Of a stretch of DNA of 59,660 bases, positions 53,601-58,873 are shown one piece after another. The DNA comes from Candidatus Pacebacteria bacterium CG_4_10_14_0_8_um_filter_42_14 (GTDB taxonomy: Bacteria > Patescibacteriota > Microgenomatia > UBA1400 > PJMF01): the NCBI GenBank assembly GCA_002784625.1, contig PFLP01000027.1, positions 1 through 59,660 on the forward strand, read 5' to 3'. The notes under the pieces were generated by a model. That model saw only the letters and a program-made list of their open reading frames with translations. It made no database searches and was not told the origin of the DNA. Position 1 is the stretch's first letter; each line of letters starts with the position of its first letter. Position numbers and translations under genes: made by a program.

Positions 53601-53999
53601 TTATAGGTACTTGTAGAGTTTTAGAAAGGCAATTGCAGCTCCGAGAGAATCAAAACCGACGTCTCGTAAGGTGCCATGCCTACCAAAAACAAATGATTGG
53701 TGAATCTCATCACTGGCTGCATAGAGCACGGTGAAGATCAGGGGCACAAGCCAGACAGAGTGAGAAGTATCTTGAGGTCTAGTAATTTTTTGGGCGCGAA
53801 AGAGTAGTAGATACATGATGGCGTAGGCGGTAATATGACCAGCTTTTTTAAAGAGAAAATCGGTAGTTTGGAGTGAAAAGCCAGGAATTACTTGTTGGCC
53901 AGAGACAATAAAAATTGCGATCGCCCAAATGATCACAGGAGAATAAGCAGAAACAAAAATAAAGTTTTTGTGAAGAAGTTTCATTTTCGAGCAAGCCAA
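53601..53999 (-). CDS. VanZ-like membrane protein
   Basis: Four TM segments. SDEIHQSFVFGRHGTLRDVGFDSLGA matches the VanZ signature. Confidence 0.7.
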   Translation of the reverse strand: MACSKMKLLHKNFIFVSAYSPVIIWAIAIFIVSGQQVIPGFSLQTTDFLFKKAGHITAYAIMYLLLFRAQKITRPQDTSHSVWLVPLIFTVLYAASDEIHQSFVFGRHGTLRDVGFDSLGAAIAFLKLYKYL

Positions 54000-55168
54000 C
54001 TACTGAGAGATACCAGGAAGCCTCCTAGTATAACATGGGGGAAGGGTTCACTTGATTGACTGGGAGGTTTTGGAGTCATTTCCGCCCCATCGGCTTCGGC
54101 GGTATTATTCTCTGGAAGTAGCTCAATAGAGGTGCTTTTGTAGTATGGGCGTACGAGTCGATGACTCGCGCCTAAGACTGGCGAAGTTGAATCTACAATT
54201 TTCGGAGGCGCTGCTTTATTTGTCTCAACTATTTTCTGAGTCGCCCCAGCGCTAGAGACGCTGGCTTCTTTAGAGGATGGTTTGCTATTTTTATAGCCAG
54301 GACTGGGCTCAGTCGGTTGCCACTCATTATTTAAAAGAACCAGAGACTTTCCGACTTTGCATTCTTCATATTTTGCTTTAGCAATTAACTGCCCAAAGTT
54401 AGTTGTTATAGAAAATTCATCACCGCTGTTGTTTAGAATGCTACTGGCCCACTCAAAAACTCCATAATTACCGGCTGGTATTTTTCCAGATAGGTTTCTA
54501 GTATTGCCAGAGTTATCAGTTAGAATCCAGTTTTCTAAAGTTATATCTTTTCCACTGAAAAGTTCTATCCACTCTACGTTTCCAGTATTTGGACAAGCCA
54601 TGATTTCGCTGAGACTAATTTGAGAAACATCGACGAGCTCGGTTTGGATTGCAACGGGTGTTTCTGCTGGTGGAGTCGCCTGTTCACTCTCTCCAATTAC
54701 TTCGACAGTTTCTTGGGCAAAAAATACACCAGCACTGGGAGTAGCCAGATAGACACTTGGATCAGAAAGAGAAGTCAGATTCCACGACATGCCTTTCTCA
54801 CTTGATGAGTAGCTCATTGCTGAAGCGGTAGCTTGCTGGTCGTTATAGAGAACAACAGTGTCGCCAGTGTTGTTGAGTTTGCTGCCCGAAATGGTGGCAA
54901 CGTAGGCAGTTAGGGGAGCAATCATGAGATCAGAGAATCTTACCAATAAACTCGGCTGCGAGAGGGTGTCGTAGAGACTAAATCCGCTTAAGTTGGCTGA
55001 CTGAGTAGCACTGTTGTAGATCTCAATCCATTCGGACTCGCCGGTATCAGGATTGGGATAGACTTCAGTGATTATAATTTGAGCTTCAACTTCTTTGACG
55101 ATCACTAGATAGAGAAACATGCCGCAGAGAAGCACCAACCAAAAAAGCAACCAGGGTCGAAGTGACAC
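53981..55168 (-). CDS. Membrane-anchored protein with two lamin-tail (LTD) domains
   Basis: IIITEVYPNPDTGESEWIEIYNS..LSGFSLYD and ISLSEIMACPNTGNVEWIELFSG..NWILTDNSGN. N-terminal TM helix and a C-terminal hydrophobic segment. Confidence 0.7.
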   Translation of the reverse strand: MSLRPWLLFWLVLLCGMFLYLVIVKEVEAQIIITEVYPNPDTGESEWIEIYNSATQSANLSGFSLYDTLSQPSLLVRFSDLMIAPLTAYVATISGSKLNNTGDTVVLYNDQQATASAMSYSSSEKGMSWNLTSLSDPSVYLATPSAGVFFAQETVEVIGESEQATPPAETPVAIQTELVDVSQISLSEIMACPNTGNVEWIELFSGKDITLENWILTDNSGNTRNLSGKIPAGNYGVFEWASSILNNSGDEFSITTNFGQLIAKAKYEECKVGKSLVLLNNEWQPTEPSPGYKNSKPSSKEASVSSAGATQKIVETNKAAPPKIVDSTSPVLGASHRLVRPYYKSTSIELLPENNTAEADGAEMTPKPPSQSSEPFPHVILGGFLVSLSSWLARK

Positions 55169-55207: not shown

Positions 55208-56401
55208 TTAATAATTTACGTGAAGATAATAGGTGCTGATGCCGTCTGCTTGCTCGACTTTGACGTATCTGAGGTTGCCACCTCCACAAGCGATACTTCC
55301 TCTAGAAAGAACACCATTCTGGACTGCACGGACTCTGTAGTCTCCAGATTTACCAACCATGTCAATTCCAGTGTGAGGAGCACCACCATAAGCTCTACGA
55401 ACGCGAGCATAGTAGGTCATGCCATAACCCTGAGTGATTCTAGCAGCATCAAAAACAGGCCAGTCCCAGCCTCCCCCAAAGCCAAAAGATCCATCGGGAG
55501 AGTTGCTCCAGGCTATGTCGACTGAGGAGAGGTAGGCGGATGGATCTCTATTAACTTTATCTTTCACAACTTCAAAATGCAGATGAGTGCCTGTAGAGCA
55601 GACGCTAGATCCAGAAATAATACTGGCAATTACGTCACCTGCGGCAACATCCCCAACTTTGGATTCGCTACCTTTTCCTGCGATGATAGATTGAATGGCA
55701 TTGATTTCAGCCAGCGTTTTTGCAAGCGCTGCTTGATAAACAGATTCATTGTTTTTGGTTTCAGTTAATAAGTATTGTTGTTCAGTTCGCTGTTTGGCCA
55801 GGACATTTTGTTCTTTCTCGAGTTTTTCTTGCTTAATAGCAATTTCTTCTTGTTTCTGTTCTTTACTCGCCTTTTGTTCATCGTAAAGCAGTCGTTGCGA
55901 CTCGGCTCGTTCCATGGCAACTGCTGTTTGTTCGCGAGCTTGTTGCAAGTACTTTAGTTTGGAAAAGAATGATGAGGGAGAACCGTTTTTATCAAGAAGA
56001 AAAAGAATCGGATTAACTCGATGTTGTTTATATTCTTGCTGGACTCTCTCTACCAAGAGAGTTGTTAGCCGGTCAAGAGAAAGATTCAGGCCACCGATTC
56101 GCTGAGTAAGATCTGAGATCTGAGCCGTTAAAATTGAGATCTCAGACTCGGTTTGCTGGATCTGAATTTCTTGAATCTGTACTTTGCCATTAATGATGCT
56201 GATGGTGTTGGTGAGAGTAACGCGTTGCTGTTGAGTTTGATTTAAGTTGTCTTCAAGACATTTTTTCTTGTCTTCAAAACAAGTTAGATCCTCACCACCT
56301 GACTGACACTGAAATTCATCACAAGCGATGGCAAAAACTTCTGGAACACTGATACTAAGCGTGAATATGAGGATGAGTAAGAAGCTATATATTTTGCGCA
56401 T
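55208..56401 (-). CDS. Coiled-coil M23 metallopeptidase (EnvC/PcsB-like FtsEX partner) with M23 motifs in permuted order
   Basis: Signal peptide and a roughly 200-aa Gln/Glu-rich coiled coil. Then GTHLHFEV (aa 272-278) lies upstream of HTGIDM (aa 343-348), and the protein ends at YYLHVNY. Confidence 0.8.
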   Translation of the reverse strand: MRKIYSFLLILIFTLSISVPEVFAIACDEFQCQSGGEDLTCFEDKKKCLEDNLNQTQQQRVTLTNTISIINGKVQIQEIQIQQTESEISILTAQISDLTQRIGGLNLSLDRLTTLLVERVQQEYKQHRVNPILFLLDKNGSPSSFFSKLKYLQQAREQTAVAMERAESQRLLYDEQKASKEQKQEEIAIKQEKLEKEQNVLAKQRTEQQYLLTETKNNESVYQAALAKTLAEINAIQSIIAGKGSESKVGDVAAGDVIASIISGSSVCSTGTHLHFEVVKDKVNRDPSAYLSSVDIAWSNSPDGSFGFGGGWDWPVFDAARITQGYGMTYYARVRRAYGGAPHTGIDMVGKSGDYRVRAVQNGVLSRGSIACGGGNLRYVKVEQADGISTYYLHVNY

Positions 56402-56409
56402 CTGTCTAT

Positions 56410-57282
56410 TTATGAGCGATGGGCAAAGCGATTGACGGCAACACTACTAGCAAATGCCCCAAGAACTAAGCCGATAGCCACACCTATTCCAAGCTGTAGT
56501 AGTAAGAATGACATCGGAACTGGAAAAGAAATCATGCCAATAAAGAATGTCGTCAGAGTTGGAGTCAGGTATAAAAGAACCGCCACGGTTGCTGCCCAGC
56601 CAAGAATGGCTCCGAAAACGCCATAGAGAATGCCTTCGACGATGAACGGTTTATTGATATACCAGGCGGAGGCTCCAATTAGGCGCATGACAGAAACAGC
56701 ATACTTTTTATTGGCTGCCTTCATGGTGATAACGATGGTTATGGTTAGAAATGACACGAAGCTAAGAACTACCACATCGATCATACCGGCAGTTCTTAAA
56801 GCACTAGTCCAGTTGGCGAGTTGGTCAACTATATCCTGTTGAAAGATGACTTCGTCAACGTGGTCGGTTTTTGAAAGAGTTTCGGCGAGCTTTGTTAGAG
56901 TTCTTGGATCAGAAGCAGAGACTTCAATACTGGCTGGGAGAATGTCGGCCGTGACCAGCTCTAATAATAGGGGCGAGTCATCATATTCTTTCGCATAATC
57001 AGCCAATGCCTGTTCTTGAGTGATTAGCTTCACATCGGTGACGCTGGCGTCTTTAGAAATTTGATCTGCCAGAGCTTTAATATCCGCGGCTTCAGCGTCG
57101 AGATCGAAGAAAGCAATTACCTGAGGGGCTGTTTCGAAGTATCGGAGTACTAGGTCCGCACCAGATAGAATAAATGCCAGGCGAAAGCCAACGAAAAAGG
57201 TCACTGTCACCATCAGAAGAGCAGCCAAAGATTGATAAGGCGTTCGGCGAATAGTGGTTAGGGCTCCAGTTAGTGCGTTCAT
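56410..57282 (-). CDS. ftsX: Cell division permease-like protein FtsX
   Basis: N-terminal TM helix, a large extracytoplasmic loop, three C-terminal TM helices, and RLIGASAWYI (family pattern RLVGAT). Lies directly after ftsE. Confidence 0.85.
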   Translation of the reverse strand: MNALTGALTTIRRTPYQSLAALLMVTVTFFVGFRLAFILSGADLVLRYFETAPQVIAFFDLDAEAADIKALADQISKDASVTDVKLITQEQALADYAKEYDDSPLLLELVTADILPASIEVSASDPRTLTKLAETLSKTDHVDEVIFQQDIVDQLANWTSALRTAGMIDVVVLSFVSFLTITIVITMKAANKKYAVSVMRLIGASAWYINKPFIVEGILYGVFGAILGWAATVAVLLYLTPTLTTFFIGMISFPVPMSFLLLQLGIGVAIGLVLGAFASSVAVNRFAHRS

Positions 57283-57285
57283 AGG

Positions 57286-58260
57286 CTACTCAAGATTTTC
57301 AACTTCTACTTTTGGTTTTTTCTTGGTTTCTTTCTCTGGTTTCTTTTTATCTTCCTTTTTTGGTTTTTCTTCAACAGCATCCTTCTTCTCAGGTTCAGTC
57401 TTTTTCTTGAACTTCCCAAAAAACTTGCTAATAGAAAACGCCGGTTTTATTGGTTTCTCTTCTTTCTTTTCCTTTTGATCTTTTTTTTCTTCTTTTTTCT
57501 CGATCTTCTTCTCGACAGGTTTTTCTGCTTTCTTCTTTGGAGCTGGTTTCTCAGGTTTCACATCCTCTTTCTTTTTCTCGATAGTTTTTGGTTGTTTGGG
57601 GTTAGTGTCTTTTATGAGTGAACCAGAATCGAGAATTAAAGTGCGAAATTCTTTTTCTTCTAGTAGATCTTGATCATGGGTTGCAAAAAGAATGGTGGTA
57701 CCAAGCTCATTGATTTTTTTTAATAGCTTAACAATTCCGGTTGAGTTCTTTGCATCAAGGTTCCCTGTTGGTTCATCAGCAAAAATAACCTCTGGACCGG
57801 TTGCTAGAGCTCTGGCAATACCAACTCTTTGGGCCTCACCACCAGAAAGCTGACTAGGGAATAGGTAAGCTTTTTCAGGTAGGCCAATTAGTTTGAGCAG
57901 ATCAGTAACTCGGCGCTCGATTTCCGCTTCATCTTGACCGATGATCTGTAGAGGCAGGGCAATGTTTTCCCAGACGTTTAGTTCTGGCAAAAGTTTGTAG
58001 TCTTGGAAAACGACACCGATACGTCTTCTGAGCATAGGAACGGAGTTCTTGTTCAGGGTGTTAACAATTGTGTCAAAAAAGGTGATCTCACCCGCCGTAA
58101 TGGCATATTCTCTAATCAGCAAGCGCATAAGAGTTGTCTTGCCGCTGCCCGAGGGACCGGTGATGAAAACAAACTCTCCTGGCTCAATTAGGAAAGAAAC
58201 ACTTTTTATGCCAAAATCATCTGGGGCGAACTCTTTCGAGACACCGTTAAATCGAATCAT
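57286..58260 (-). CDS. ftsE: Cell division ATP-binding protein FtsE with a roughly 100-aa Lys/Glu-rich C-terminal tail
   Basis: MIRFNGVSKEF, GPSGSGKTT, LSGGEAQRV, IFADEPTGNLD, and ATHD. The tail starts near KQPKTIEKKKED. Confidence 0.9.
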   Translation of the reverse strand: MIRFNGVSKEFAPDDFGIKSVSFLIEPGEFVFITGPSGSGKTTLMRLLIREYAITAGEITFFDTIVNTLNKNSVPMLRRRIGVVFQDYKLLPELNVWENIALPLQIIGQDEAEIERRVTDLLKLIGLPEKAYLFPSQLSGGEAQRVGIARALATGPEVIFADEPTGNLDAKNSTGIVKLLKKINELGTTILFATHDQDLLEEKEFRTLILDSGSLIKDTNPKQPKTIEKKKEDVKPEKPAPKKKAEKPVEKKIEKKEEKKDQKEKKEEKPIKPAFSISKFFGKFKKKTEPEKKDAVEEKPKKEDKKKPEKETKKKPKVEVENLE

Positions 58261-58297: not shown

Positions 58298-58873
58298 CTA
58301 CTCTTCAACCGGCGCTTTGGCGTCGACTTTGACAACCTCGACTCGACCGACATCCATCAGCCAACCAGCTCTTTGTGCTTTAAAGGTTTCTCCCCAAATT
58401 TTGACTTCCATACCAGCAAGCTTATCGAGGTCAGTTACAGATGAGGTCAGATAAACTGTCTGGGATGCTCCACCTGGGCGCAGGAGTTTATGAGAGCCTT
58501 CACCGTTGATTCCACCTTTTTCGAGGTAGCCTTGGGCGTCGTCTTTAAAGGCTTCAATGTCAGCGCTTCCGAAGACTTCACCAGCAAAGACTTGATCACC
58601 AGCGATTTGGGAAATTTGTTGGCCTCCTGGAAGAGTATCAGTAGAACCAGAACTGGCAGTGAGCCTGTGCGTGCCGTAGCCAGTAGTAATTCCAGCTACA
58701 ACAGCAAAGATGCTAAGGCCAATTATCATTTTTTGATTTGCTTTTTTCACAGATTTTTCCTGAACTGGTAACGGTCGCTGATTATCTGCGCCAGCTACTG
58801 TCTCGTCAACTATCGGTTGGGTCGATTCTGGAGACTCAATATTTGAATTGTTGATGAGATCAAGTTTATGCAT
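58298..58873 (-). CDS. Hypothetical bitopic membrane protein
   Basis: One TM helix (MIIGLSIFAVVAGITTGYG) after a polar N-terminus. The C-domain is not recognisable. Confidence 0.55.
   Translation of the reverse strand: MHKLDLINNSNIESPESTQPIVDETVAGADNQRPLPVQEKSVKKANQKMIIGLSIFAVVAGITTGYGTHRLTASSGSTDTLPGGQQISQIAGDQVFAGEVFGSADIEAFKDDAQGYLEKGGINGEGSHKLLRPGGASQTVYLTSSVTDLDKLAGMEVKIWGETFKAQRAGWLMDVGRVEVVKVDAKAPVEE

What the first reader, a model, noticed from the sequence alone, without database searches (positions are those of the whole stretch)
55208..55660. Apparent circular permutation of the M23 metallopeptidase domain in the FtsEX-linked hydrolase
Seen: the only HxH motif (GTHLHFEV, aa 272-278, nt 55568-55585) is preceded by the typical segment VGDVAAGDVIASIISGSSVCSTG. 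It lies about 65 residues upstream of the only HxxxD motif (PHTGIDM, aa 342-348, nt 55361-55375). HxxxD is followed by AVQNGVL..GGGNLRYVKVEQADGISTYYLH, and the protein stops 3 aa later. Established: in LytM/M23 domains the order is HxxxD .. Y.HL .. G..G.tG..tGpHLHFE. The upstream 240 aa are signal peptide plus coiled coil and contain no HxxxD, so this is not two tandem complete domains. Inference: the domain is circularly permuted, plausibly through duplication and double truncation. The position immediately downstream of ftsE-ftsX and the EnvC/PcsB-like coiled coil suggest it is the divisome hydrolase or activator.
Basis: partly seen in the sequence, partly recalled or inferred. Interest (0 to 1): 0.7.

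Follow-up and report, generated by a model that had tools for sequence, protein, structure and literature searches.

The report
Circularly permuted M23 cell-wall peptidase
The cell-wall-cutting enzyme encoded next to the division genes ftsE-ftsX in this ultra-small (Microgenomates/CPR) bacterium has the two halves of its M23 zinc-peptidase domain in swapped order, a conserved natural circular permutation that I found described in no paper of the searchable library and that standard structure search misses.

Summary
The gene at 55208..56401 (-) encodes 397 aa: a signal peptide, a two-helix coiled-coil hairpin, then an M23/LytM domain. In that domain the HxH segment (H273/H275) lies before the HxxxD (H343/D347) and YxH (H394) segments, and the protein ends 3 aa after H394.

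Pfam, PDB-sequence and profile-profile alignments all give two out-of-order matches. Swapping the halves in silico restores one collinear full-length match. This holds for the window protein, for 5 diverse relatives and for the family profile.

More than 800 homologues share the swapped order. In 214 domains all five catalytic/zinc residues are essentially invariant, and a family-specific Cys268/Cys372 pair links the two halves. In 77 of 80 species loci the gene follows ftsE-ftsX. The closest canonical-order relatives are Parcubacteria coiled-coil-M23 proteins with a homologous coiled coil.

Best reading: an active, FtsEX-coupled septal peptidoglycan endopeptidase with a truly permuted catalytic domain.

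Not shown:
- The 3D active-site geometry. No coordinates were available, and Foldseek found no M23 hit with a confident model.
- The evolutionary route to the permutation.
- Biochemical activity.

No description of a permuted M23 domain was found in the searchable literature. I rate it a new variant of a known kind, of moderate to high interest.

The parts
57286..58260 (-). ftsE (ABC ATPase, 324 aa, with a Lys/Glu-rich C-terminal tail)
   Evidence: PF00005 ABC_tran, E 1.4e-33. Conserved upstream of ftsX in 74/80 related loci.
56410..57282 (-). ftsX (290 aa). It has the FtsX extracellular domain and the permease domain. Its stop codon lies 8 nt before the M23 start codon.
   Evidence: PF18075 FtsX_ECD, E 4.5e-18, and PF02687 FtsX, E 6.9e-10. 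Present directly upstream of the M23 gene in 77/80 loci.
55208..56401 (-). Whole gene: secreted coiled-coil protein with a circularly permuted M23 peptidase domain (397 aa plus stop).
56330..56401 (-). Signal peptide, aa 1-24 (MRKIYSFLLILIFTLSISVPEVFA).
   Evidence: Read directly from the sequence: a hydrophobic N-terminus followed by an AxA-like site. The model shows a helix at aa 2-17. The cleavage site is an inference.
56258..56329 (-). N-terminal Cys-rich segment, aa 25-48 (C27, C32, C41, C48).
   Evidence: C41 and C48 are invariant and C27 and C32 are at least 90% conserved in 121 sequences. Function unknown.
55685..56287 (-). Coiled-coil hairpin, helices aa 39-129 and 142-239. Presumed to be the FtsX-binding module.
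   Evidence: AF2 model, pLDDT mostly 80-96. Foldseek matches: RipA N-terminal domain 6ewy (target-normalised TM 0.78), EnvC in the FtsEX complex 8tzl_E and 6tpi_A, and PcsB 4cgk. It aligns with the coiled coil of canonical P0226 at E 7e-12.
55520..55672 (-). Half A, aa 244-294. This is the canonical C-terminal part of M23 (GD-box hairpin KVGDVAAGDVIASI, SxCSTGTHLHFE, DPxxYL tail), here placed first, directly after the coiled coil.
   Evidence: Matches Pfam profile positions 62-96, 5kqb residues 85-122 and P0226 residues 374-398.
55577..55585 (-). HxH motif, H273-L-H275.
   Evidence: H273 is present in 214/214 and H275 in 213/214 permuted domains.
55457..55546 (-). Permutation junction, aa 286-315. 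The old C-terminal tail (DPSAYL) is joined through a Gly/Ser-rich linker to the old N-terminal start (GxWDWP).
   Evidence: P287, W312, W314 and P315 are conserved. In the de-permuted profile alignment these residues form the two ends of the canonical domain.
55211..55519 (-). Half B, aa 295-397. This is the canonical N-terminal two-thirds of M23 (WxWP, ITQGYGMT, HTGID, GGG strand, YYLH), here placed last and forming the C-terminus.
   Evidence: Aligns to 5kqb residues 6-79, to P0226 residues 283-364 and to profile positions 2-53 in relatives.
55361..55375 (-). HxxxD motif, H343-T-G-I-D347.
   Evidence: H343 and D347 are each present in 214/214 domains.
55220..55222 (-). H394 of the YxH(L) motif (catalytic His in canonical M23), 3 aa before the stop.
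   Evidence: Present in 213/214 domains. The C-terminus lies 2-4 aa after it in 203/214.
55598..55600 (-). Cys268 (in half A), putative disulfide partner of Cys372.
   Evidence: The C/C pair is present in 202/214 permuted domains. It is replaced by Y and S in canonical P0226.
55286..55288 (-). Cys372 (in half B), putative disulfide partner of Cys268.
   Evidence: Same evidence as for Cys268. A weak half-A versus half-B profile alignment places the two Cys at equivalent positions (not significant).

Best explanation
The gene encodes a secreted, catalytically competent M23/LytM zinc endopeptidase whose catalytic domain is a genuine, lineage-wide circular permutation.

The canonical order is [WxWP-QGYG - HxxxD - GGG strands - YxH] followed by [GD-box hairpin - HxH - DPxxYL]. 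The break falls in the short loop after YxH. The second block now comes first, fused 4-8 residues after the last coiled-coil helix. The old C- and N-termini are joined by a linker of about 30 aa. The protein ends 3 residues after the catalytic His394.

The two blocks are expected to reassemble the normal M23 active site, with zinc ligands H343, D347 and H275 and catalytic H273 and H394. A family-specific Cys268-Cys372 disulfide probably staples them together.

Functionally it is the extracellular partner of the FtsEX ABC complex. The coiled-coil hairpin would dock on the FtsX extracellular domain, and the FtsE ATPase cycle would switch on peptidoglycan cross-link cleavage at the septum during division. 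This is analogous to PcsB, CwlO and RipC, which are themselves hydrolases, and unlike EnvC, which only activates amidases.

Shown here: the permuted order, conservation of the catalytic residues, the family's breadth, synteny with ftsEX, and a homologous coiled coil in canonical relatives.

Inferred: the 3D reassembly, the disulfide, FtsX binding, ATP-driven regulation and substrate specificity.
For: Split, out-of-order HMM and PDB-sequence alignments.

De-permuted constructs give single collinear full-length PF01551 hits with higher scores, for the window protein and for five diverse relatives.

Profile-profile comparison with the canonical Parcubacteria family: de-permuted order gives one hit of 129 columns at E 5e-37, native order gives two out-of-order hits.

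BLASTP against canonical P0226 is collinear through the signal peptide, coiled coil and half B. Its alignment gap falls exactly over half A, and a second alignment segment places half A at the P0226 C-terminus.

More than 800 homologues exist. 94 clusters at the 50% identity level score below E 1e-10, and almost all listed representatives scoring better than about E 1e-11 are permuted (two multi-M23 proteins apart), with canonical-order hits common only from about E 1e-9.

H273, H275, H343, D347 and H394 are invariant in 213-214 of 214 domains. The Cys pair is present in 202/214, and the C-terminus is fixed 2-4 aa after H394 in 203/214.

The AF2 models are confident: full length pLDDT 82.8, domain alone pLDDT 84.6 and pTM 0.84. 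Their beta-strands sit where the M23 alignment predicts.

The coiled coil matches RipA, EnvC and PcsB.

The operon prfB - 191-aa gene - ftsE - ftsX - M23 is conserved in 77/80 species loci, and the gap between ftsX and M23 is 8 nt.
Against: Foldseek with the confident domain model found no M23/LytM structure in the PDB (best E 0.7). In BFVD it found only one borderline hit. Three-dimensional equivalence to M23 is therefore not demonstrated here. No coordinates were available, so ligand geometry and the Cys-Cys distance could not be measured.

The loop aa 326-339 is highly conserved but modelled with low confidence.

The canonical Parcubacteria relatives are not adjacent to ftsEX; they sit in ftsW-murG-gltX-M23. 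FtsEX coupling therefore rests on synteny within Microgenomates and on analogy.

There is no biochemical evidence of any kind.
Confidence: 0.8

Rival explanations
1. Intermolecular complementation (domain-swapped dimer). Half A of one chain pairs with half B of a second chain, so the active site forms only in a coiled-coil-mediated dimer and not within one polypeptide.
For: Half A follows the coiled coil after only a few residues. Coiled-coil proteins often oligomerise. Foldseek did not recognise the monomer model as M23.
Against: The conserved linker of about 30 aa between the halves is long enough for intramolecular assembly. The monomer domain model is confident, with pTM 0.84. The permuted module also occurs at the end of giant proteins that lack this coiled coil. 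Known FtsEX partners with solved structures use a single hairpin per chain (established knowledge, not tested here).
Confidence: 0.07
2. A regulatory pseudo-enzyme of the EnvC type. The permuted domain no longer cleaves peptidoglycan and instead acts as an FtsEX-controlled activator or scaffold for another hydrolase.
For: It has the operon position and coiled coil of EnvC. The permutation could in principle disturb catalysis. The weak NCBIfam EnvC hit covers the coiled coil only.
Against: All five zinc and catalytic residues are invariant across 214 diverged sequences. EnvC-type LytM domains have lost these residues (established knowledge). The NCBIfam EnvC equivalog scores 16.9 bits against a cut-off of 270.
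Confidence: 0.08
3. Not a real feature: a mis-assembly, a frameshift, or a chance arrangement of motifs in a degenerate tandem duplication.
For: None beyond the a-priori rarity of permutations.
Against: The same order occurs in more than 800 proteins from independent assemblies of NCBI, JGI, ENA and Logan and in 80 species-representative genomes. There is a single uninterrupted ORF. The upstream region is helical, not a degenerate half-domain. No other M23 fragment exists in the window.
Confidence: 0.01

Closest known systems
Canonical-order coiled-coil-M23 proteins of Parcubacteria (e.g. P0226, P0308; annotated 'peptidoglycan DD-metalloendopeptidase family protein')
   Same: Length of about 400 aa, signal peptide, a homologous coiled coil (E 7e-12), the shared hallmark QGYGMT..AYGGxPHTGIDM, and intact HxxxD, YxH and HxH motifs.
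   Different: Their domain order is canonical: a single PF01551 hit over 2-90/96 at 101 bits. They lack the Cys268/Cys372 pair. Their genomic context is ftsW-murG-gltX rather than ftsE-ftsX.
EnvC (E. coli / V. cholerae), the FtsEX-bound coiled-coil LytM protein (PDB 6TPI, 8TZL)
   Same: Encoded with or functionally tied to ftsEX. It has a coiled-coil hairpin plus a C-terminal LytM/M23-type domain. The full-length model gives Foldseek hits to 8tzl_E and 6tpi_A.
   Different: The EnvC LytM domain is collinear and catalytically degenerate, and EnvC activates amidases through a restraining-arm mechanism (established knowledge). Here the domain is permuted and retains all catalytic residues. The NCBIfam EnvC model scores far below its cut-off.
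PcsB (S. pneumoniae), CwlO (B. subtilis), RipC/RipA (mycobacteria): FtsEX-controlled hydrolases of monoderm bacteria
   Same: A secreted coiled-coil module followed by an active peptidoglycan hydrolase domain. The structural matches are RipA N-terminal domain 6ewy (target-normalised TM 0.78) and PcsB 4cgk. JGI names some relatives 'CwlO-like'.
   Different: Their catalytic domains are CHAP or NlpC/P60 cysteine peptidases, not M23 metallopeptidases.
Circularly permuted NlpC/P60 families (YaeF/poxvirus G6R, LRAT-like)
   Same: They are a precedent for a natural circular permutation that swaps the order of catalytic residues in a cell-wall-peptidase superfamily (PMC6403190, citing Anantharaman and Aravind 2003).
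   Different: They have a different fold and a different catalytic mechanism (Cys/His papain-like).
Hybrid-barrel/'HABAS' and GD-box domains, with topologies related by circular permutation
   Same: M23 is listed among proteins containing this four-stranded motif with a GD-box-like sequence, and three topologies related by circular permutation are described across families (PMC11515920). The break point here falls just before the GD-box hairpin.
   Different: That work describes permutation between distant families of the small motif, not a permutation of the whole M23 catalytic domain within the M23 family.

Membership tests
Peptidase family M23 / LytM (Pfam PF01551, MEROPS M23) | Significant match to the family profile above the curated threshold. 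| tested here: met
   38.7 bits against a cut-off of 28.7, summed over two stretches. The de-permuted construct scores 52.5 bits.
Peptidase family M23 / LytM (Pfam PF01551, MEROPS M23) | HxxxD motif (zinc ligands His and Asp). | tested here: met
   H343 and D347 are each present in 214/214 family members.
Peptidase family M23 / LytM (Pfam PF01551, MEROPS M23) | HxH motif (catalytic His plus zinc-ligand His). | tested here: met
   H273 is present in 214/214 and H275 in 213/214.
Peptidase family M23 / LytM (Pfam PF01551, MEROPS M23) | Additional catalytic His in the Y-x-H-L strand. | tested here: met
   H394 is present in 213/214. It aligns with the YxHL motif of 5kqb, 3slu and 5j1l.
Peptidase family M23 / LytM (Pfam PF01551, MEROPS M23) | Collinear order HxxxD ... 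YxH ... GD-box ... HxH. | tested here: not met
   The order is GD-box - HxH - linker - HxxxD - YxH. This is the permutation itself. Homology holds, but the topology differs.
Peptidase family M23 / LytM (Pfam PF01551, MEROPS M23) | M23 three-dimensional fold with His/Asp/His around one zinc ion. | tested here: inconclusive
   The AF2 domain model is confident (pTM 0.84) and has strands at the expected aligned positions. Foldseek nevertheless finds no M23 structure. No coordinates were available, so geometry and a permutation-aware superposition could not be done.
Peptidase family M23 / LytM (Pfam PF01551, MEROPS M23) | Zinc-dependent peptidoglycan endopeptidase activity. | not testable with these tools
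   This needs biochemistry.
FtsEX-partner coiled-coil cell-wall proteins (EnvC / PcsB / CwlO / RipC class) | Gene linked to ftsE-ftsX. | tested here: met
   It lies 8 nt downstream of ftsX. The linkage is conserved in 77/80 species loci.
FtsEX-partner coiled-coil cell-wall proteins (EnvC / PcsB / CwlO / RipC class) | Secreted N-terminal antiparallel coiled-coil hairpin. | tested here: met
   Helices at aa 39-129 and 142-239. Foldseek matches to RipA N-terminal domain, EnvC and PcsB.
FtsEX-partner coiled-coil cell-wall proteins (EnvC / PcsB / CwlO / RipC class) | Physical binding of the coiled coil to the FtsX extracellular domain, and ATPase-dependent activation. | not testable with these tools
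   The FtsX_ECD domain is present in the neighbouring gene. No complex prediction or experiment was possible.
EnvC proper (NCBIfam NF008644, murein hydrolase activator) | Equivalog-level profile match, and a degenerate LytM domain that activates amidases. | tested here: not met
   16.9 bits against a cut-off of 270, and the match covers the coiled coil only. The catalytic residues are intact.

The most novel reading that the evidence does not exclude
The permutation is not neutral. It rewires regulation.

The break sits in the loop right after catalytic His394, and the coiled-coil helix is fused directly to the GD-box/HxH hairpin. FtsEX-driven motion of the coiled coil would therefore be transmitted straight into the active-site strands. 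The strictly conserved free C-terminus ...H-V-N-Y-COO-, 3 aa from the catalytic His, could act as part of the gate. This would be an allosteric switch different in kind from the EnvC restraining arm or the PcsB inter-domain occlusion.

The Cys268-Cys372 staple would be the compensating innovation that made the rewired domain stable.
Probability: 0.15. Interest if true: 0.8.

Novelty: new variant of a known kind. Interest (0 to 1): 0.6.

Why it matters
M23/LytM domains are among the most studied cell-wall enzymes and regulators (lysostaphin, LytM, EnvC, NlpD, SpoIIQ). I know of no natural circular permutation of this domain (from memory), and four literature searches of the held library aimed at it found none.

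In this case the permuted form is the only version of the presumed FtsEX-coupled division hydrolase across a whole major CPR lineage. That gives three consequences.

1. It is a clean, datable example of how a catalytic domain can be re-threaded while every catalytic residue is kept. A canonical sister family in Parcubacteria is available for comparison.

2. It moves the attachment point of the regulatory coiled coil to the rim of the active site. This makes it a natural experiment on how FtsEX controls its hydrolase.

3. It exposes a blind spot in annotation. Pfam sees only two weak half-hits, NCBIfam has no model for it, and Foldseek with a confident model returns no M23 structure.

If the permutation is only a neutral topological variant, it is still a useful curation and protein-evolution case, but not a new mechanism.

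Tried and rejected
- Foldseek with the full-length model against the PDB was dominated by coiled-coil matches. It was useful only for the RipA, EnvC and PcsB resemblance.
- Foldseek with the domain-only model found no M23 hit in the PDB. In BFVD it gave one borderline hit, A0A510E7V3_3. These results can neither confirm nor refute the fold.
- tblastn of the domain against INPHARED phages found no match at E <= 1e-3, so the BFVD lead could not be followed.
- The listing of cluster members for divergent permuted and canonical representatives gave almost no names or taxonomy.
- A search for A-B-A intermediates found none among the permuted domains. Longer C-terminal tails are unrelated sequence or belong to tandem canonical proteins.
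- A test for internal half-A versus half-B similarity was not significant (hhalign E 0.037, probability 1.4%). I kept it only as a hint about the two Cys positions.
- Six literature searches (permutation with M23 or LytM, FtsEX with Patescibacteria, M23 with Microgenomates, 'duplicated hybrid motif') found no description of this arrangement.
- I rejected the idea that the RF2 gene at the window edge is frameshifted or truncated. Its reading frame is simply open to the window end.
- I rejected a second M23 copy or a stray half-domain elsewhere in the window.
Full report
**1. What is at the coordinates**

The finding lies in the 3' part of a single ORF on the minus strand, 55208..56401, which encodes 397 aa plus a stop. 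The protein has only five histidines: H127, H273, H275, H343 and H394. It has one HxH (H273-L-H275, nt 55577-55585) and one HxxxD (H343-T-G-I-D347, nt 55361-55375). H394 lies in ...STYYLHVNY*, and the stop follows three residues later.

The gene starts 8 nt after the stop of ftsX (56410..57282), which follows ftsE (57286..58260). Pfam assigns FtsX_ECD plus FtsX to the former and ABC_tran to the latter.

**2. Is the order really permuted relative to M23?**

Yes, at every level I could test.

- Pfam PF01551 matches in two stretches, and the best one places aa 251-287 on profile positions 62-96 of 96.
- phmmer against PDB sequences aligns aa 315-395 to residues 6-79 of the M23 peptidase 5kqb, and aa 248-285 to residues 85-122 of the same chain. 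The pattern is the same for 3slu and 5j1l.
- I cut the domain between aa 294 and 295 and rejoined it as aa 295-397 followed by aa 244-294. hmmscan then returns a single collinear hit over profile 2-96 at 52.5 bits. The native order gives 42.7 bits in two stretches.
- The same experiment on five diverse relatives gave the same result each time. These were 39-65% identical in the domain and included two giant proteins. Native order gave two stretches, with profile 57-96 placed ahead of profile 2-53 in the protein. De-permuted order gave one stretch over 1/2-96 and gained 9-13 bits.
- At family level, I ran hhalign between a 214-sequence alignment of the permuted domains and a 120-sequence alignment of the closest canonical family. 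Native order gives two out-of-order hits (E 8e-23 and 1.4e-13). After de-permutation there is one 129-column hit at E 5e-37 with probability 99.9%. It runs from the WxWP start to the DPxxYL end of the canonical domain.

The break point is the short loop between the Y-x-H(L) strand and the GD-box hairpin (V-x-V-G-D-x-V-x-x-G). The old termini are joined by aa about 286-315.

**3. Is it real biology?**

- The search for homologous proteins returns more than 800 hits. The best 120 are 52-94% identical. In the 121-row alignment (window protein plus these 120), 119 show HLH before H[TS]G[ILV]D (the motif scan found no H[TS]G[ILV]D in the other two), and all 121 end at ..YLH[VI]N[YF] with at most one extra residue.
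- An exhaustive HMMER scan of 1.84 billion cluster representatives found 811 proteins below E 1e-3, 94 below 1e-10 and 25 below 1e-30. I split the query into halves to check order. Of the 89 listed representatives with E at or below 7.8e-12, almost all carrying both halves are permuted. The two exceptions, P0204 and P0207, are proteins with more than one M23-like segment. Canonical-order proteins become common from E of about 1e-9.
- In 214 permuted domains, H273, H343 and D347 are present in 214/214. H275 and H394 are present in 213/214. The protein ends 2-4 residues after H394 in 203/214.
- A Cys pair (C268 in half A, C372 in half B) is present together in 202/214. It is absent from the canonical sister family, which has Tyr and Ser at these positions. 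I interpret it as an inter-half disulfide; this is an inference.
- The window holds no other M23 fragment.

**4. Taxonomy and context**

A scan of one genome per GTDB species returned 102 loci, of which 80 were kept. Most titles name only 'Patescibacteria group' or generic and apparently mis-assigned taxa. The informative ones name Microgenomates-type groups: Pace-, Woese-, Shapiro-, Beckwith-, Gottesman-, Davies-, Levy- and Curtissbacteria.

tblastn with the window's neighbouring proteins shows the order prfB - 191-aa membrane protein - ftsE - ftsX - permuted M23 in 77 of 80 loci for FtsX and 74 for FtsE. In each of the three loci without FtsX, less than 1 kb of sequence is held upstream of the match.

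**5. Closest canonical relatives**

Among the representatives, P0226 (429 aa) stands out in three ways.
- Its coiled coil aligns with ours at E 7e-12.
- It shares the hallmark QGYGMT..AYGGxPHTGIDM.
- Its M23 domain is collinear, with a PF01551 hit over 2-90/96 at 101 bits.

BLASTP of the two proteins is collinear from the signal peptide through the coiled coil into half B. Its alignment gap falls exactly where our half A sits. A second alignment segment maps our aa 252-278 to P0226 residues 374-398.

The P0226 family has 1347 proteins below E 1e-10. Where named, they are Parcubacteria (Portnoy- and Buchananbacteria, 'Parcubacteria group') and are annotated 'peptidoglycan DD-metalloendopeptidase family protein'. 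In two examples the gene sits in ftsW-murG-gltX-M23, not next to ftsEX.

The permutation therefore distinguishes the Microgenomates-type proteins from the canonical Parcubacteria ones. No species tree was built, so I could not place the event on a particular branch.

**6. Structure**

- AlphaFold2 on a 121-sequence alignment gives a full-length model with pLDDT 82.8. It has a signal-peptide helix, two long helices (aa 39-129 and 142-239) and a beta domain at aa 245-393.
- A domain-only model has pLDDT 84.6 and pTM 0.84. Its strands fall where the sequence alignment to M23 predicts.
- The only low-confidence stretch is the conserved loop at aa 326-339.
- Foldseek with the full-length model finds the coiled-coil modules of known FtsEX partners: RipA N-terminal domain 6ewy (target-normalised TM 0.78), EnvC in 8tzl_E and 6tpi_A, and PcsB 4cgk.
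- Foldseek with the domain alone finds no M23 structure at all (best E 0.7). In BFVD it finds one borderline hit (E 0.016, 161 columns).

I attribute this failure to the sequential, neighbour-separation-dependent nature of 3Di alignment when it is applied to a permuted, interleaved sheet. That explanation is an inference, and a wrong model cannot be excluded. No coordinates are exposed by the tools.

**7. Mechanism proposed**

Shown here: the protein has a signal peptide, an EnvC/PcsB/RipA-like coiled-coil hairpin, a complete set of M23 catalytic residues, and a conserved position directly after ftsX.

Inferred:
- It is exported.
- Its hairpin docks on the FtsX extracellular domain.
- FtsE ATP hydrolysis relieves an inhibited state.
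- The M23 domain cleaves peptide cross-links in septal peptidoglycan to allow cell separation.

Because the catalytic residues are invariant, it is a hydrolase in its own right, like PcsB, CwlO and RipC. It is not an EnvC-type activator; the NCBIfam EnvC equivalog scores 16.9 bits against a cut-off of 270.

The permutation moves the junction between the coiled coil and the catalytic domain. It shifts from the canonical N-terminus to the loop next to catalytic His394 and the GD-box/HxH hairpin. Whether this changes how FtsEX gates the enzyme is the most interesting open question; I give that reading a probability of about 0.15.

**8. Origin**

Duplication followed by loss of the first half B and the last half A is the textbook route to a circular permutation. 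Tandem canonical M23 proteins (B-A-B-A) exist in the database: P0213, P0260, P0251 and P0204. However, I found no A-B-A intermediate inside the permuted family, so the route is plausible but unproven.

The permuted module, including its Cys pair, has also been re-used at the C-terminus of giant proteins: P0194 (1256 aa), P0206/P0288 (894/2492 aa, with an Exo_endo_phos domain) and P0222 (2174 aa). This shows that it behaves as an independent evolutionary unit.

**9. Novelty**

Six full-text searches found no description of a permuted M23/LytM domain, or of this Microgenomates protein. They combined circular permutation or 'permuted' with M23, LytM or 'M23 peptidase'; FtsEX with Patescibacteria; M23 with Microgenomates; and the phrase 'duplicated hybrid motif'.

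The nearest precedents are:
- the permuted NlpC/P60 families (PMC6403190);
- the observation that small hybrid-barrel/GD-box motifs, of which M23 contains one, occur in circularly permuted topologies across unrelated families (PMC11515920).

The library is limited to open-access papers, so prior mention elsewhere cannot be excluded.

I classify the finding as a new variant of a known kind. It is a homologous, probably active M23 peptidase and probable FtsEX partner with a non-canonical chain topology.

**10. Verdict**

| Item | Result |
|---|---|
| Observation | confirmed |
| Permutation at sequence level | confidence about 0.95 |
| Full statement (folds as M23, active, FtsEX-coupled) | confidence about 0.8 |
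| Interest | 0.6 |

Noticed in passing
window 58298..58873 (-): A 191-aa protein with one predicted transmembrane segment and no Pfam hit lies between prfB and ftsE. A homologue is present at the same place in 72 of 80 related species loci, so it may be an unrecognised member of the ftsEX operon.
   Followed up: partly
window 57286..57600 (-), C-terminal ~100 aa of FtsE: FtsE carries a long Lys/Glu/Pro-rich low-complexity tail after the ABC ATPase domain (…PKQPKTIEKKKEDVKPEKPAPKKKAEKP…). This is unusual for FtsE. It may be a cytoplasmic tether.
   Followed up: no
window 53981..55168 (-): Directly downstream of the M23 gene is a secreted 395-aa protein with two lamin-tail (LTD) domains (PF00932, E 6.5e-21). 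It is detectable in only 19 of 80 related loci.
   Followed up: partly
proteins P0194 (aa 1101-1251), P0206/P0288 (aa 686-835 of 894), P0222 (aa 2021-2147): The same permuted M23 module, including the Cys pair, sits at or near the C-terminus of giant proteins of 894 to 2492 aa. One of them also has an endonuclease/exonuclease/phosphatase domain. The permuted domain has therefore spread to other architectures.
   Followed up: partly
BFVD entry A0A510E7V3_3: The only near-significant Foldseek match of the domain model is a viral protein fragment: 161 aligned columns, 24% identity, E 0.016. It could be a permuted M23 domain in a virus. tblastn against the phage collection found nothing.
   Followed up: partly
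window 55286..55288 and 55598..55600 (Cys372, Cys268); window 56258..56329 (Cys27/32/41/48): Two sets of conserved cysteines are present. One is an inter-half pair specific to the permuted family (202/214). A weak half-versus-half profile alignment places the two residues at equivalent positions. The other is a four-Cys cluster just after the signal peptide.
   Followed up: partly
loci L003, L007, L008, L011-L017, L042, L063: Many MAG records carrying this Microgenomates-type operon are titled Pseudomonadales, Gammaproteobacteria, Vitreimonas, Limisphaerales, Methylococcaceae, Bathyarchaeia or TM6 (CP011212). These are probably mislabelled bins or contaminant contigs.
   Followed up: no
loci L081-L083: In Parcubacteria the canonical-order orthologue-like gene sits in a conserved ftsW - murG - gltX - M23 arrangement rather than next to ftsEX. 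This suggests a different wiring of the division hydrolase in the sister lineage.
   Followed up: partly
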